Shown one piece after another: positions 36 through 3,754 of a DNA stretch of 4,503 nt (its first letter is position 1; the number at the start of each line of letters is the position of its first letter). The stretch lies in the UHGV virus genome UHGV-1976595. One strand, written 5' to 3'. The notes beneath the pieces were generated by a model that was not told where the DNA came from, searched no databases, and saw nothing but the letters and a program-made list of their open reading frames with translations. The DNA is from a virus. The translations under genes and the position numbers were made by a program.

Positions 36-155
36 ATGGCTCGTTCTCGCCGTCGTATGTCCAAGCGTTCTTCTCGTCGTTCGTTCCGTAAGTACGCAAA
101 GACGCATAAGCGAAACTTTAAAGCCCGTTCGATGCGTGGCGGTATTCGTCTTTGA
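36..155 (+). CDS. Small arginine/lysine-rich DNA-binding (packaging) protein, gokushovirus VP8 / microvirus J-like
   Basis: ATG at 36 preceded by AGGAGG (26-31) with a 4-nt spacer; 39 codons, stop TGA 153-155. Translation by hand: MARSRRRMSKRSSRRSFRKYAKTHKRNFKARSMRGGIRL, about 40 percent Arg/Lys, typical of the small DNA-condensing proteins of Microviridae. Too short to appear in the supplied ORF track. Family assignment is by composition, size and genome context only. Confidence 0.7.
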   Translation: MARSRRRMSKRSSRRSFRKYAKTHKRNFKARSMRGGIRL

Positions 156-166
156 TTGACAAAGTT

Positions 167-195
167 GATCGTAACGATCTACGATAATTATCGTA
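167..195. repeat. Two adjacent perfect palindromes built on ATCGTA half-sites: GATCGT-a-ACGATC (167-179) and TACGATAATTATCGTA (180-195)
   Basis: Read directly from the sequence. ATCGTA occurs at 168-173 and 190-195, and its reverse complement TACGAT at 180-185. Lies in the VP8-VP4 intergenic region just downstream of a perfect TTGACA hexamer (156-161). Function unknown; candidate operator, iteron or origin element. Confidence 0.6.
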
Positions 196-208
196 AGTCG
201 TTGTTTTT

Positions 209-236
209 GTTAAACTAAATATACATTATGCGCACC
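209..236 (-). other. dif-like Xer recombination site (candidate attP for XerC/XerD-mediated integration)
   Basis: The minus strand of 209-236 reads GGTGCGCATAA-TGTATA-TTTAGTTTAAC. Compared with E. coli dif (GGTGCGCATAA TGTATA TTATGTTAAAT, recalled from memory) the XerC arm matches 11/11, the central region 6/6 and the XerD arm 7/11. A conserved XerC arm with a degenerate XerD arm is the pattern described for phage and IMEX attachment sites. Confidence 0.6.
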
Positions 237-248
237 AAGGTGCGCATA
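227..248. repeat. Perfect 10-bp inverted repeat TATGCGCACC-aa-GGTGCGCATA (XerC-arm sequence duplicated in inverted orientation)
   Basis: Read directly: 227-236 is the exact reverse complement of 239-248, with a 2-nt spacer. The second copy (239-249, GGTGCGCATAC) matches the dif XerC arm at 10/11 positions in forward orientation. Confidence 0.85.
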
Positions 249-269
249 CGTGAATTATGGAGGTGTGTC

Positions 270-1133
270 ATGGCTTGTACCCGTCCGTTAAACGCGTACC
301 AGATGCCATCGGGGAAGATTTTTTTCACGCCGTCACGTGGCGCTAAATTCATTCAGTTGCCTTGCGGTCAGTGCATCGGTTGCCGTCTTGCCCATTCTCG
401 TGACTGGGCGACCCGCTGTGTTCATGAAGCCCACATGCACGATCACAATTGTTTTATCACCCTGACTTATTCGCCTGAGAATTTACCCGAAGGCGGAACT
501 CTCGTTCGTAAACATTTCACCGATTTTATGAAGCGTTTGCGTAAGGCTTTGTCTGTTGATGATATTTCAATTCGTTTTTTCGGCTGTGGTGAATATGGCT
601 CTAAATTAGAGCGACCGCATTATCATGCGATTATTTTTGGATATGATTTTCCGGATAAGACACTGCATAAAGCTGGAAGATTTAATTTATTTAGGTCTTC
701 GCTTCTTGAAAGATGCTGGACTTTTGGCTTTTCTGTTATTGCTGGCTTTAGCTTTGAGTCGGCTGCATATGTGGCGCGATACTGTGTTAAAAAAGTCACC
801 GGTTCCCGTTCAGAGGAGCATTATGGACATCGCCTACCCGAGTTTTCAGCTATGAGTAACAGGCCAGGAATTGGCTACGATTTTTTTATGGAGTATTACG
901 ATGACATAGTTAATTCAGATGCGTGTATTGGTCGTGGCGGTCGTCAGATAAAACCGCCCCGCTATTATGACAAGTTATTATCAGGCTGTGATTTGGAAAA
1001 GTTGCAGCAAAATAAAGAAAAGCGCCAGTTAAATGCTCAGGTATTAGACCCGTGGCGTTTGCAGGATTTAGATAAATTTAATCTGGTTAAATTCCAGCGA
1101 ATGATGAGGAAATTAGAAAATGGCTCACTCTGA
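270..1133 (+). CDS. Replication initiation protein, HUH rolling-circle endonuclease (gokushovirus VP4 / microvirus gpA-like)
   Basis: ORF 228..1133 in the supplied track. I place the start at ATG 270 (MACTRPLNAYQ...) because GGAGG at 259-263 sits 6 nt upstream, whereas ATG 228 has no Shine-Dalgarno and lies inside the dif-like motif. Motifs read in the translation: motif I FITLTY (453-470), HUH motif HYH in PHYHAIIF (618-626), and the twin-tyrosine catalytic motif YVARYCVKK (768-794, Tyr codons at 768 and 780), closely resembling the active-site region of phiX174 gpA. A Cys/His-rich segment CGQCIGC...RCVHEAHMHDHNC spans 363-452. Stop TGA 1131-1133. Confidence 0.9.
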   Translation: MACTRPLNAYQMPSGKIFFTPSRGAKFIQLPCGQCIGCRLAHSRDWATRCVHEAHMHDHNCFITLTYSPENLPEGGTLVRKHFTDFMKRLRKALSVDDISIRFFGCGEYGSKLERPHYHAIIFGYDFPDKTLHKAGRFNLFRSSLLERCWTFGFSVIAGFSFESAAYVARYCVKKVTGSRSEEHYGHRLPEFSAMSNRPGIGYDFFMEYYDDIVNSDACIGRGGRQIKPPRYYDKLLSGCDLEKLQQNKEKRQLNAQVLDPWRLQDLDKFNLVKFQRMMRKLENGSL

Positions 1134-1887: not shown

Positions 1888-1924
1888 CCTGGCACAGTGC
1901 CCTACTTGATGTAACTGTGCCAGG
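1888..1924. repeat. Stem-loop: 11-bp perfect inverted repeat CCTGGCACAGT / ACTGTGCCAGG with a 15-nt loop
   Basis: Read directly: 1888-1898 is the exact reverse complement of 1914-1924. Located in the VP3-VP1 intergenic region, 9 nt after the VP3 stop. Not followed by a T-run on the + strand. Confidence 0.85.
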
Positions 1925-1936
1925 TGACACCGAAAC

Positions 1937-2024: not shown

Positions 2025-3704
2025 ATGAGTAAATTCGGTCGTAAAGTACCTAGTAATGCAAAAAGTCAGCATAATTTTTCAGTAATCCCGAGTGCTAATA
2101 TTCAGCGTTCGGTCTTTAACCGTAGTTCTGGTTATAAAACCACCTTTGACGCTGGTTATTTGATTCCCGTGTTTCTGGATGAGGCTTTGCCGGGTGATAC
2201 GTTCCACCTTAAAACGAGTGTTCTCGCGCGTCTTTCCACGCCCGTGGTTCCTTTCATGGATAATCTACGTCTGGATATTCAGTATTTTTCTGTACCTTAT
2301 CGCCTCGTCTGGGATAACTGGCAGAAATTCAACGGAGAACAGAAGAACCCTGGTGATTCTACGGATTATTTGATTCCGCAGATTACAGCCCCTGCTGGCG
2401 GTTTCCCTGTTGGCTCTCTTGCCGATTATTTTGGTGTTCCTACAGGTGTCGAAGGTATCAGCGTAAGCGCCCTGCCGTTCCGCGCTTATAACCTGATTTA
2501 TAACGAGTGGTATCGTGACGAAAACCTGATTAATTCCGCCCCGCTTCCGCTTGGCGATGAGACGGAAACAGGTCTCGCAAATTTCCCGCTGCGTAAGCGT
2601 GCCAAGCGTCATGATTACTTCACAAGTGCCCTTCCGTGGCCTCAGAAAGGCGAAGGTGTTGAGATTGGTTTAGGCGTTCCGCCGTCGTACTCGTTGAATT
2701 ATCCGGAATATCCGGATGGTTTAGCGTTCTTTACGCAGTCTTATGGCGCCGGCGGCCAGACTGTTGCTGGTACGGGCTATATTGCCCGTAGTGGTCTTGA
2801 CGCCGATACAGGTCTCTATTTGAGCGGTGGCCTTCAGAATGGTATTAACTGGCCTGAATCTCCTGTTCAGGGACGTTATGACGTTATTTCCGGTTTCCTT
2901 CCGGGCAAACCTCCGGTTACTTTGGAAAAGACAGGTGGTGAAGTTGTTGACAATCTCACGATTAACTCATTGCGTCAGGCGTTCCAGCTTCAGCGCCTGC
3001 TTGAGCGTGATGCTCGCGGTGGTACGCGATACATTGAGATTATTCGCAGTCATTTTGGCGTCATTTCTCCTGATGCCCGTGTTCAGCGTCCTGAGTATCT
3101 TGGCTCTGGTTCGTTCGATATAAATATCAATCCCGTTCTTCAGAACTCTGCGACTACCGATGCCAGCCCACAAGGTAACCTCGCAGCTTATGGTGTTTCC
3201 GGTGGTGTTAACCGTGGTTTTTCACATTCTTTTGTGGAGCACTGTTTTGTCATTGGTCTTGTATCTGTCCGTGCAGATTTGACCTATCAGCAAGGCATCC
3301 CGCGCATGTTCTCCCGTCAGACCCGCTTTGATTTCTACTGGCCTGCACTGGCCCACCTGGGCGAACAGGCTATTCTTAACAAGGAGATTTATGCGCAAGG
3401 CAACGCTAAAGATGATGAAGTCTTTGGCTATCAGGAACGTTACGCGGAGTACCGCTATCGTCCATCCCAGATTACTGGTAAATTACGTTCCACAGACCCG
3501 CAATCCCTCGATGTGTGGCATTTAGCCCAGCGGTTCGACTCTCTGCCCGCATTGAATCAGGAGTTCATCGAAGAGAATCCACCGATGAGTCGTGTTCTGG
3601 CCGTTCAGGACGAGCCTCAGTTCATTCTGGATGCATTCTTTGACCTGAAATGTGTGCGGCCTATGCCAGTTTATTCAGTACCCGGTCTTATTGACCATTT
3701 TTAA
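2025..3704 (+). CDS. Major capsid protein (gokushovirus VP1 / microvirus F-like)
   Basis: 559-aa ORF. ATG 2025 follows GAGGGGGG (2014-2021); stop TAA 3702-3704. The N-terminal region (...SVIPSANIQRSVFNRSSGYKTTFDAGYLIPVFLDEALPGDTF...) matches the conserved N-terminal signature of gokushovirus major capsid proteins as I recall it from Chlamydia phage and related VP1s. Its length fits a gokushovirus VP1 with the large surface insertion. Confidence 0.92.
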   Translation: MSKFGRKVPSNAKSQHNFSVIPSANIQRSVFNRSSGYKTTFDAGYLIPVFLDEALPGDTFHLKTSVLARLSTPVVPFMDNLRLDIQYFSVPYRLVWDNWQKFNGEQKNPGDSTDYLIPQITAPAGGFPVGSLADYFGVPTGVEGISVSALPFRAYNLIYNEWYRDENLINSAPLPLGDETETGLANFPLRKRAKRHDYFTSALPWPQKGEGVEIGLGVPPSYSLNYPEYPDGLAFFTQSYGAGGQTVAGTGYIARSGLDADTGLYLSGGLQNGINWPESPVQGRYDVISGFLPGKPPVTLEKTGGEVVDNLTINSLRQAFQLQRLLERDARGGTRYIEIIRSHFGVISPDARVQRPEYLGSGSFDININPVLQNSATTDASPQGNLAAYGVSGGVNRGFSHSFVEHCFVIGLVSVRADLTYQQGIPRMFSRQTRFDFYWPALAHLGEQAILNKEIYAQGNAKDDEVFGYQERYAEYRYRPSQITGKLRSTDPQSLDVWHLAQRFDSLPALNQEFIEENPPMSRVLAVQDEPQFILDAFFDLKCVRPMPVYSVPGLIDHF

Positions 3705-3717
3705 AACCCAACTCTTT

Positions 3718-3740
3718 GGCCTCTTCGGAGGCCTTTTTTT
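3718..3740 (+). terminator. Rho-independent terminator: GGCCTC-TTCG-GAGGCC followed by TTTTTTT
   Basis: 6-bp GC-rich stem (3718-3723 / 3728-3733), UUCG tetraloop (3724-3727) and a 7-T run (3734-3740), 14 nt after the VP1 stop and immediately before the VP2 ribosome-binding site. Confidence 0.75.
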
Positions 3741-3754
3741 CATGAGGTGAAATT

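What the first reader, a model, noticed from the sequence alone, without database searches (positions are those of the whole stretch)
156..208. Palindrome-rich region with perfect -35 hexamer upstream of the rep gene: candidate origin or operator
Immediately after the VP8 stop there is a perfect TTGACA (156-161), but no good -10 at 16-18 bp spacing (best is TACGAT at 180-185, 4/6). It is followed by two back-to-back perfect palindromes (13 bp at 167-179 and 16 bp at 180-195) that share ATCGTA half-sites, then a T-rich tract (201-207). Repeated half-sites in inverted orientation are the architecture of operators and of Rep-binding origin elements. The segment AAGTTGATCGTAACGA also loosely resembles the core of the phiX174 gpA nick site around CTTG/ATA as I recall it (about 11 of 18 positions), which is weak evidence only. 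The replication origin of gokushoviruses is poorly defined, so this is a reasonable place to look.
Basis: partly seen in the sequence, partly recalled or inferred. Interest (0 to 1): 0.5.

Follow-up and report, generated by a model that had tools for sequence, protein, structure and literature searches.

The report
Promoter-like spacer beside phage dif site
This conserved 53-base stretch of a small single-stranded-DNA E. coli phage is most likely the on-switch (promoter) for the phage's replication gene, carrying a conserved pair of methylation sites and lying next to the site the phage uses to insert into the chromosome; it is not the replication origin, which appears to lie elsewhere in the genome.

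Summary
The window is a complete circular Enterogokushovirus genome, 92% identical to Escherichia phage EC6098. The segment lies between the VP8 stop codon and the XerD arm of the phage dif/attP site (208-236).

It is under selection. Only 3 of 52 columns vary among nine close relatives, against 24-33% at neighbouring third-codon positions.

The origin reading fails:
- the phiX174 resemblance is at chance level;
- several close relatives lack the segment, and in most distant gokushoviruses VP8 abuts VP4;
- a family-wide, covarying stem-loop whose loop reads CTACTTGATGTA (1888-1931) is a far better nick-site candidate.

TTGACA-18-TAYGAT is the best sigma-70 match in the genome, and most relatives carry TATGAT. 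The perfect 16-bp palindrome is peculiar to this sublineage.

The truly conserved element is GATCG-N3-CGATC, two Dam sites. Its arms are invariant in six otherwise diverged lineages, in a genome depleted of GATC.

Best reading, inferred and not demonstrated: a VP4 promoter that reads through attP. Integration would disconnect it from VP4, and its spacer holds a methylation-sensitive or protein-binding site.

The parts
36..155 (+). VP8 gene (39-aa basic protein), the last gene before the spacer.
   Evidence: ORF. It is 100% identical to EC6098 vp8.
156..161 (+). TTGACA, candidate -35 hexamer. It starts one base after the VP8 stop codon.
   Evidence: Invariant in all nine type-1 genomes. Absent in other spacer types.
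167..179 (.). GATCGTAACGATC, whose conserved core is GATCG-N3-CGATC. It holds two Dam GATC sites 9 bp apart and lies inside the 18-bp promoter spacer.
   Evidence: The arms are 100% identical in six lineages, against 40% for the centre and 52% for the flanks. It always lies 10-11 nt after the VP8 stop. It holds 2 of the genome's 5 GATC sites, where 15-17 are expected.
180..185 (+). TACGAT, candidate -10 hexamer. It reads TATGAT in six type-1 relatives and TATGGT in one.
   Evidence: Only positions 3 and 5 of the hexamer vary; T1, A2 and T6 are invariant.
180..195 (.). 16-bp palindrome TACGATAATTATCGTA. It is perfect only in the window and L091.
   Evidence: Relatives have 7/8 or 6/8 pairs. It is absent from all non-type-1 spacers.
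173..207 (+). Extended imperfect hairpin (173-202) plus T-run (201-207), a weak terminator-like element.
   Evidence: 13/15 pairs. RNA folding energy is -11 kcal/mol with z -4.3. It collapses in L084 and L091.
193..207 (.). GTAAGTCGTTG(T5) module next to the XerD arm.
   Evidence: It is shared with the distant L184-186 lineage (VP4 66% identical), which lacks the rest of the spacer.
208..236 (-). Phage dif motif (XerCD attP). Read on the minus strand: GGTGCGCATAA TGTATA TTTAGTTTAAC, that is XerC arm, centre, degenerate XerD arm.
   Evidence: Annotated as 'dif-motif' in EC6098. Prophage junctions fall exactly here in 7 E. coli genomes. Function was shown experimentally for EC6098 in PMC7062461.
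227..248 (+). Hairpin TATGCGCAC-CAAG-GTGCGCATA. The XerC arm pairs with an inverted copy of itself, and it would lie in the putative VP4 5'UTR.
   Evidence: -16.1 kcal/mol, z -4.4. Present in type 1 and in L172/L173.
270..1133 (+). VP4 rolling-circle replication initiator, the gene the candidate promoter would drive. A GGAGG Shine-Dalgarno sequence lies 7-8 nt upstream.
   Evidence: PF23343. PGAP uses the same start codon in 7 prophages.
1888..1931 (+). Context, not part of the finding. Family-wide stem-loop: arms 1888-1898 and 1914-1924, loop containing CTACTTGATGTA (1902-1913), then TGACACC. It is the likely VP4 nick site and (+)-strand origin.
   Evidence: (H7-H9).

Best explanation
Positions 156-208 are the non-coding spacer between the last gene (VP8) and the XerD arm of the phage's dif-like attachment site. 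In this lineage the spacer most likely acts as a sigma-70 promoter with these parts:
- -35 hexamer TTGACA at 156-161;
- 18-bp spacer;
- -10 hexamer TAYGAT at 180-185;
- predicted transcription start near 192.

Its transcript would run rightward through the dif site and the 227-248 hairpin into the replication-initiator gene VP4.

XerCD integration splits the circle inside dif. In the prophage the promoter therefore sits at the right end and points out into host DNA, while VP4 sits at the left end behind the host dif. The promoter can drive VP4 only in the circular replicative or excised form.

The promoter spacer contains the one element conserved beyond this lineage, GATCG-N3-CGATC, which is two Dam sites. 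I infer that it is a sequence-specific recognition site, read either through Dam methylation and possibly SeqA or by a dimeric protein, and that it modulates this region. It is not conserved as a hairpin.

The perfect 16-bp palindrome is largely a by-product. Its left half is the -10 hexamer, and it is imperfect in most relatives.

Shown here: position, conservation, prophage geometry, GATC depletion.
Inferred: promoter activity, the transcription start, any methylation effect.
For: 1. The site is the best sigma-70 match on either strand of the genome: 10/12 and PWM 12.5 against 10.2 for the next best. In six relatives the -10 is the stronger TATGAT (PWM 14.1, 11/12).
2. The spacer is under purifying selection. 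Among nine genomes 3/52 columns vary, against 32.5% (VP8) and 23.6% (VP4) at third-codon positions (p=0.0015 and 0.0026).
3. The three variable sites are -10 position 3, -10 position 5 and position 199. The -35, T1/A2/T6 of the -10 and the whole 18-bp spacer are invariant. That is the pattern expected of a promoter, not of a symmetric operator.
4. Orientation and place are right. It lies 85 nt upstream of the VP4 start, with no gene in between and no ORF of 30 aa or more across it.
5. The GATCG/CGATC arms are 100% identical in six lineages whose centre (40%) and flanks (52%) have diverged. Among four independent groups only 4/25 flank columns are invariant, so 10/10 invariant arm columns has probability about 1e-8.
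6. The small hairpin these arms could form is no more stable than shuffled sequence (-4.3 to -4.4 kcal/mol, z about -0.7). Selection is therefore on sequence, not on structure.
7. GATC is the most depleted 4-bp palindrome in the genome (observed/expected 0.34). It occurs 1-8 times per genome in 21 relatives, where 11-18 are expected. The pair makes up 2 of 3 GATCs in L084, L171 and L175.
8. Seven E. coli prophages show the segment at the right end and VP4 at the left end behind the host dif.
9. L174 and L175 have the same geometry in weaker form: TTAATT or TTAGTT, 18 bp containing the GATC pair, then TAATAT.
Against: - There are no transcript or 5'-end data. Everything rests on consensus matching and conservation.
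- The 18-bp spacing is suboptimal, and the window's own -10 (TACGAT) matches only 4/6.
- Lineages type 2, L172 and L173 keep the GATC pair without any recognisable -35/-10 around it. The pair's function therefore cannot be strictly tied to this promoter.
- Lineages with almost no spacer (L176/177, 7 nt; L090, L094, L003) evidently express VP4 without it. The promoter is dispensable for the virus type as a whole.
- The nine type-1 genomes are closely related, so invariance of 49 columns has limited power.
- An outward-firing promoter in the prophage has no obvious benefit.
Confidence: 0.5

Rival explanations
1. Operator or host-factor site. The palindromes, above all GATCG-N3-CGATC, are primarily a binding site for a dimeric DNA-binding protein or for SeqA on hemimethylated DNA. 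That protein would control phage carriage, lysogeny or Xer recombination, and the promoter match would be secondary or incidental.
For: The arms are strictly conserved while the centre is free, which is the classic signature of a dimer site or a methylation pair. The pair is kept in type 2, L172 and L173, where no promoter is recognisable. It is retained against genome-wide GATC depletion. EC6098 confers superinfection immunity and stable carriage without a known repressor (PMC7062461).
Against: No candidate binding protein is encoded; the phage has six genes, none with a recognisable sequence-specific DNA-binding domain. The 16-bp palindrome, the best operator-like feature, is degenerate in 7 of 9 type-1 genomes, and its changes are not compensated. 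The pair is absent in many viable relatives. No match to a known E. coli operator consensus that I could recall (ArgR, Fur, HipB, matS, PurR were considered from memory only).
Confidence: 0.2
2. Intrinsic terminator. The hairpin at 173-202 followed by GTTTTTGTT ends the VP1-VP2-VP8 transcript. That would insulate dif and VP4 in the circle, and host DNA in the prophage, from read-through.
For: The hairpin folds at -11 to -12.6 kcal/mol with z -4.3 and is followed by a T-run. EC6098 keeps it at -11.8. Distant gokushoviruses that have a VP8-VP4 spacer often carry a GC-rich hairpin plus T-run there (L061, L069, L145, L179). The end of the last gene is the expected place for a terminator.
Against: The tool's terminator scan does not call it, because the inner stem has only 2 G-C pairs. 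The outer stem is broken in L084 (-6.3, z -0.4) and in L091, the window's closest relative (-8.7, z -1.2), with no compensation. The stem is AU-rich. A strong canonical terminator already follows VP1 at 3718-3733.
Confidence: 0.15
3. Extended attP or Xer accessory region. The sequences flanking the degenerate XerD arm help assemble or orient the XerCD synapse, compensating for the weak XerD arm.
For: The segment abuts the XerD arm. The GTAAGTCGTTG module next to the GTTAAAC-type XerD arm is shared with a lineage whose VP4 is only 66% identical. By my reading of the sequences, lineages with the GATC pair have poorer XerD arms (7-8/11 matches to ATTTAACATAA) than lineages without it (9-10/11). 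This rests on a small, phylogenetically confounded sample.
Against: Known Xer accessory sequences (cer, psi) lie on the XerC side, span about 180 bp, and bind ArgR/ArcA and PepA. None of that applies here. The distance from the GATC pair to the XerD arm differs between type 1 (29 nt) and the other lineages (16-17 nt). EC6098 integration was shown to need the two arms, but this region was never tested.
Confidence: 0.1
4. Replication origin. Either VP4 nicks the viral strand here, or a hairpin here primes complementary-strand synthesis.
For: It is non-coding, rich in palindromes and upstream of rep. TTGAT at 165-169 loosely resembles phiX174 CAACTTG^ATA.
Against: The phiX match of 11/17 equals the shuffle expectation of 11.8. 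The segment is absent in relatives whose VP4 is 87-94% identical, and in most gokushoviruses VP8 abuts VP4. The centre of the conserved palindrome, where a loop nick site would lie, is the least conserved part. A family-wide, covarying stem-loop with loop CTACTTGATGTA exists at 1888-1931, found as 121 distinct versions. All 10 of its stem pairs show compensatory changes, with covariation 0.554 against 0.177 in shuffles (0/500 shuffles as high).
Confidence: 0.04

Closest known systems
Dam-sensitive sigma-70 promoters of mobile elements (IS10 pIN, Tn5/IS50 transposase promoter with two GATC sites at the -10). This comparison rests on my own knowledge.
   Same: GATC sites sit inside the core promoter of the gene for the element's own replication or mobility protein. 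The element passes through un- or hemimethylated states. There are two closely spaced GATCs next to the -10.
   Different: Here the GATCs lie in the spacer (about -13 to -25), not in the hexamers. No methylation effect has been shown. The GATC pair also occurs in lineages without a recognisable promoter.
Circularisation-dependent expression in mobile elements (Tn916 transfer genes; IS911, IS2 and IS30 junction promoters). This comparison rests on my own knowledge; Tn916 context in PMC11658703, listed but not read.
   Same: A promoter at one end of the integrated element is joined to its target gene at the other end only in the circular form.
   Different: Here the whole promoter lies on one side of the crossover point, so it is not a split -35/-10. 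The recombinase is the host XerCD, and the function has not been tested.
dif-motif/attP of Enterogokushovirus EC6098 and other elements that exploit Xer (CTXphi, VGJphi); Kirchberger & Ochman 2020, PMC7062461.
   Same: The finding directly flanks the experimentally validated type of XerCD site. The window is a 92%-identical relative of EC6098.
   Different: The finding is not the dif site itself. The paper does not mention promoters, origins or hairpins for this flank.
phiX174 gene A origin (CAACTTG^ATATTAATAAC...), sequence recalled from memory.
   Same: VP4 belongs to the same HUH/rolling-circle Rep superfamily (PF23343).
   Different: Positions 156-208 match it only at chance level. The real look-alike (ACTTGAT in a hairpin loop) is at 1902-1913.
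cer/psi accessory sequences for XerCD. This comparison rests on my own knowledge.
   Same: Non-core DNA next to a Xer site.
   Different: It is on the wrong side (XerD rather than XerC), much shorter (52 nt against about 180 bp), and has no ArgR or ArcA box.

Membership tests
Sigma-70 promoter | -35 and -10 hexamers close to consensus at 16-18 bp spacing, with A2 and T6 in the -10. | tested here: met
   TTGACA-18-TACGAT matches 10/12 and is the top site of the genome. Relatives match 11/12.
Sigma-70 promoter | Critical positions conserved among relatives. | tested here: met
   The -35 and T1/A2/T6 of the -10 are invariant in 9 genomes. Variation is confined to -10 positions 3 and 5. The relatives are close, so power is limited.
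Sigma-70 promoter | A mapped transcription start or reporter activity. | not testable with these tools
   No transcript data were found in the literature searched.
Rolling-circle (HUH Rep) origin of the phiX174 type | Similarity to the known nick-site sequence above chance. | tested here: not met
   The match is 11/17 against a shuffle mean best match of 11.8.
Rolling-circle (HUH Rep) origin of the phiX174 type | Present in all genomes that encode a closely related Rep. | tested here: not met
   It is absent in L090, L094, L003 and mar4 (VP4 87-94% identical). In most distant gokushoviruses the VP8-VP4 spacer is 0-28 nt.
Rolling-circle (HUH Rep) origin of the phiX174 type | Rep nicks the sequence in vitro. 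| not testable with these tools
   A biochemical assay is required. The competing candidate at 1888-1931 has family-wide conservation and covariation.
Operator (symmetric repressor site) | Dyad symmetry maintained among relatives. | tested here: inconclusive
   The 16-bp dyad is not maintained (7 of 9 genomes imperfect). The GATCG/CGATC dyad is strictly maintained in 6 lineages.
Operator (symmetric repressor site) | A cognate DNA-binding regulator is encoded or identified. | tested here: not met
   There are only six genes (VP4, VP5, VP3, VP1, VP2, VP8), and none is annotated as a regulator. A host factor is not excluded.
Intrinsic (Rho-independent) terminator | A stable G+C-rich stem immediately followed by a T-run. 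| tested here: inconclusive
   The hairpin folds at -11 kcal/mol and a T-run follows, but the stem is AU-rich and the scan does not call it.
Intrinsic (Rho-independent) terminator | Stem maintained among relatives, with compensatory changes. | tested here: not met
   The outer stem is broken, without compensation, in L084 and L091.
Dam/SeqA-controlled site | Two or more GATC sites within about one to three helical turns, conserved. | tested here: met
   Two GATCs lie 9 bp apart and are invariant in 6 lineages, in genomes with GATC observed/expected about 0.1-0.5.
Dam/SeqA-controlled site | Methylation state changes binding or expression. | not testable with these tools
   This needs dam and seqA host genetics or methylation-aware sequencing.
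Xer accessory sequences (cer/psi type) | About 180 bp on the XerC-arm side, with ArgR/ArcA and PepA binding sites. | tested here: not met
   The segment is 52 nt long and on the XerD-arm side. No ARG box was seen by inspection.
XerCD dif/attP core | An 11-6-11 site where prophage junctions fall. | tested here: not met
   The core is 208-236, next to the finding and not overlapping it except at base 208.

The most novel reading that the evidence does not exclude
The conserved GATCG-N3-CGATC pair is a methylation-state sensor, read directly by RNA polymerase or through SeqA. Together with the separation of the promoter from VP4 by XerCD integration, it would set VP4 (Rep) expression according to whether the phage DNA is freshly replicated, a long-lived episome or integrated. 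That would give a phage with no repressor gene a way to switch between productive replication, quiet carriage and lysogeny.
Probability: 0.12. Interest if true: 0.7.

Novelty: new variant of a known kind. Interest (0 to 1): 0.4.

Why it matters
Enterogokushoviruses are the only gokushoviruses that can be grown in E. coli. They lysogenise and persist without any known repressor or integrase (PMC7062461). How Rep expression is restrained in carriers and lysogens is unknown.

A Rep promoter that is physically disconnected by XerCD integration, and that carries a conserved pair of Dam sites, would give a concrete mechanism. Four or five point mutations in the existing synthetic-phage system could test it.

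The negative result is also useful. It moves the search for the gokushovirus origin away from the VP8-VP4 spacer and towards a precise hairpin at 1888-1931, with a predicted nick between G1908 and A1909 placed by analogy with phiX174.

Tried and rejected
- **phiX174 origin resemblance at 162-178.** Rejected as chance.
- **Origin of either strand in 156-208.** Rejected on distribution and because of the competing element at 1888-1931.
- **Small GATC hairpin as a structural element or terminator.** Its energy is indistinguishable from shuffles, and there is no covariation, only identity.
- **ssDNA attP of the CTXphi type.** Only the XerC arm can pair, at 227-248. The centre and the XerD arm have no complementary partner downstream (inspection).
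- **ssDNA promoter or M13-type minus-strand origin.** The -35 is not in duplex in the predicted ssDNA fold, and many relatives lack the segment.
- **Matches recalled from memory to ArgR, Fur (GATAAT half-box), HipB (TATCC-N8-GGATA), matS, Ter/Tus, DnaA box, IHF and the oriC 13-mers.** None fits beyond a half-site. These were not tested with tools.
- **Rfam scan of the whole window.** Nothing relevant: one sub-threshold suhB hit over the VP1 terminator.
- **IMG/VR pattern scan for the GATC pair next to a dif core.** No hits.
- **Two literature searches for promoter, origin or stem-loop in gokushoviruses.** Nothing pertinent.
- **Exact-sequence search for the loop motif.** Only unrelated papers.
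- **One look-up (P0013).** Not on record.
- **An error of mine.** My first treatment of L172 as a circular contig was wrong. It is a linear prophage contig, and the '180-nt junction' is an artefact of my pseudo-circularisation.

Full report
**Identity of the window.** The 4503 bases are a complete circular gokushovirus genome.
- The gene order is VP8 (36-155), VP4 rep (270-1133), VP5, VP3, VP1 (2025-3704) and VP2 (3755 onward, wrapping to about 34).
- It is 92% identical over 90% of its length to Escherichia phage EC6098, genus Enterogokushovirus.
- EC6098 was resurrected from a prophage and integrates at the host dif site through XerC/XerD, using a phage-borne dif motif (Kirchberger & Ochman 2020, PMC7062461).
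- By alignment with the EC6098 annotation, that motif is window 208-236.
- The finding (156-208) is therefore exactly the spacer between the VP8 stop codon and the degenerate XerD arm of attP.

**Observation.**
- On its own the pattern is only mildly unusual. An 8-arm perfect palindrome turns up in 11.7% of dinucleotide shuffles, and two adjacent palindromes with arms of 6 or more in 2.25%.
- TTGACA occurs twice in the genome.
- The phiX174 resemblance (11/17) equals the best match expected in shuffled genomes, 11.8.
- A longer imperfect inverted repeat, 173-202, followed by a T-run is also present.

**Relatives.** I collected these:
- 7 prophages from complete E. coli genomes (L084-L090);
- EC6098 and Microvirus mar4;
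- 4 metagenome contigs (L091-L094) and 2 IMG/VR contigs;
- an Intestinirhabdus alba prophage (L082);
- 16 Logan/JGI/NCBI/ENA contigs chosen across 64-92% VP4 identity (L171-L187);
- about 150 distant gokushoviruses with VP4 40-50% identical.

All seven E. coli prophages sit at dif next to hipA. VP4 lies at the left end behind the host dif, and VP8, the spacer and the phage XerD arm lie at the right end.

**Is the segment selected?** Among the nine 'type-1' genomes that share this spacer, 3 of 52 columns vary. Third-codon positions vary at 13/40 in the adjacent VP8 (Fisher p=0.0015) and at 68/288 in VP4 (p=0.0026). The first 26 bases, covering the -35 and the whole promoter spacer, are invariant. 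The segment is functional DNA.

**Not an origin.**
- Close relatives lack the segment. L090, L094 and mar4 have about 20 nt between the stop codon and the XerD arm, L003 about 16 nt, and L176/177 7 nt.
- In distant gokushoviruses VP8 and VP4 usually abut or overlap, at -4 to +28 nt.
- The VP3-VP1 intergenic region holds a hairpin: arms 1888-1898 and 1914-1924, a loop ending in CTACTTGATGTA, and then TGACACC.
- Its exact 12-mer occurs once, on the gene strand, in 47 loci.
- Allowing up to 3 mismatches and requiring a stem gives 121 distinct versions. Only 18 of 183 sources have no match at up to 2 mismatches, and some of those are short contigs.
- In a 34-sequence alignment, CTTGAT and TGACA are (near-)invariant and all 10 stem pairs show compensatory changes. 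Covariation is 0.554 against 0.177 in shuffles (0/500 as high) and 0.07-0.14 for slid partners.
- The loop resembles the phiX174 nick site CAACTTG^ATA (recalled from memory).

**What is conserved in the spacer?** It is a mosaic of three blocks.
1. **Stop codon, 10-11 nt, then GATCG-N3-CGATC.** This block is shared by type 1, type 2 (L085/86), L172, L173, L174 and L175.
   - The arms are 100% identical, the 3-nt centre 40% and the flanks 52%.
   - Only 4 of 25 flank columns are invariant among four independent groups.
   - The hairpin these arms could form is no more stable than shuffles, and there is identity rather than covariation. Selection therefore acts on the sequence.
   - The arms are two Dam sites 9 bp apart. 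GATC is the most depleted 4-bp palindrome in the genome: 5 observed against 15-17 expected, observed/expected 0.34. In 21 relatives it occurs 1-8 times against 11-18 expected.
   - Across all loci the pattern occurs 15 times in this spacer and once elsewhere, about the chance expectation for that single hit.
2. **TAYGATAATTATC.** This block is type-1 specific.
3. **GTAAGTCGTTG plus the GTTAAAC-type XerD arm.** This block is shared with L184-186 (VP4 66% identical), which lack blocks 1 and 2.

**Promoter.**
- TTGACA-18-TACGAT is the top sigma-70-like site on either strand.
- Six relatives have TATGAT (11/12) and one has TATGGT.
- The only variable positions in the hexamers are -10 positions 3 and 5, the least constrained ones, while the right half of the 16-bp palindrome never changes to compensate.
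- The perfect 16-bp palindrome is therefore peculiar to the window/L091 sublineage, and its left half is better read as a -10.
- L174/L175 have the same geometry in weaker form: TTAATT or TTAGTT, 18 bp containing the GATC pair, then TAATAT.
- Type 2 and L172-175 also share a recurrent TTAAC(A/C/G)-16/18-TACATT, whose -10 lies in the dif core.
- A transcript starting near 192 would cross dif and the 227-248 hairpin (-16.1 kcal/mol) and reach the VP4 Shine-Dalgarno sequence.

**Consequence of the geometry (inference).** Integration by XerCD separates the promoter from VP4, and excision or circular replication rejoins them. This fits the report that cultures with only circular phage DNA release more phage than lysogens (PMC7062461), but it is not proved by that report.

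**Terminator.** The 173-202 hairpin with its T-run is plausible in the window and in EC6098 (-11 to -12.6 kcal/mol). It is broken without compensation in L084 and L091, and the scan does not call it. I rank it as a secondary, possibly overlapping role.

**Verdict.**
- The origin reading is rejected.
- The regulatory reading is partly supported, and refined to a VP4 promoter next to attP with a conserved double-GATC site in its spacer.
- Nothing here has been tested experimentally.
- The papers I could search do not describe this spacer, its promoter or the 1888-1931 hairpin. Older subscription literature was not searchable.

Noticed in passing
window 1888-1931 (VP3-VP1 intergenic region): An 11-bp perfect stem (CCTGGCACAGT/ACTGTGCCAGG) carries a loop ending in CTACTTGATGTA and is followed by TGACACC. 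The 44 nt are 96-98% identical to Eel River basin pequenovirus and to bajarodmic viruses. The element is present in nearly all fetched gokushoviruses, and its stem covaries strongly. It is the likely VP4 nick site and (+)-strand origin, resembling phiX174 CAACTTG^ATA. I did not find it described in the searchable literature.
   Followed up: yes
L004 1944-1962, L005 4319-4337, L006 4387-4405, L011 1389-1407, L042 277-295: In five distant gokushovirus contigs from several metagenomes, the same origin-like stem-loop lies on the strand opposite to VP4, VP1 and the other genes. A near-identical hairpin in L062 is on the gene strand. This could be an inversion of the element, packaging of the antisense strand, or an assembly artefact. 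It is unexplained.
   Followed up: partly
window 227-248: TATGCGCAC-CAAG-GTGCGCATA: the XerC arm of the phage dif is immediately followed by its own inverted copy. This gives a 9-bp hairpin (-16.1 kcal/mol, z -4.4) that reads as a terminator on the minus strand. It is conserved in type 1, L172 and L173, is partial in L082 and L179, and is absent in type 2 and L090. Its function is unknown.
   Followed up: partly
whole window and 21 related phage genomes: GATC is strongly depleted: observed/expected 0.34 in the window, and 1-8 sites per genome against 11-18 expected. This is consistent with the known counter-selection of GATC in enterobacterial phages, which I cite from my own knowledge.
   Followed up: yes
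L179 686-9200, L182 578-10852, L082 1161-9770: These are tandem arrays of two or three gokushovirus prophages at one dif site. The copies are identical in L182 and differ in L179 and L082. Such arrays recreate the circular-form VP8-dif-VP4 junction inside the chromosome. They would also allow Xer-mediated exchange of the spacer module between phages.
   Followed up: no
L085/L086 right ends; L172-L175 spacers: A second TTAAC(A/C/G) motif lies about 12 nt upstream of the XerD arm's own TTAACA. It gives a recurrent TTAACA-16/18-TACATT promoter-like arrangement whose -10 lies in the dif centre/XerC junction (PWM 8-10). It could be a promoter built on dif or a second XerD half-site.
   Followed up: partly
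window 3718-3743: A canonical intrinsic terminator, GGCCTCTTCGGAGGCC followed by TTTTTTT, lies directly after VP1. It overlaps a sub-threshold Rfam suhB hit.
   Followed up: no
window 228-272; L001 21-65: The EC6098 GenBank record starts vp4 at an ATG inside the dif XerC arm (window 228). PGAP, in seven prophages, starts it at the ATG equivalent to window 270, which has a GGAGG Shine-Dalgarno sequence. The later start looks more likely.
   Followed up: no
L091 (OLSJ01000077.1), L171, L094: These are prophages with the same or near-identical VP4 whose right flank is not the E. coli hipA side. The same phage type therefore appears to sit at dif in different host backgrounds.
   Followed up: no
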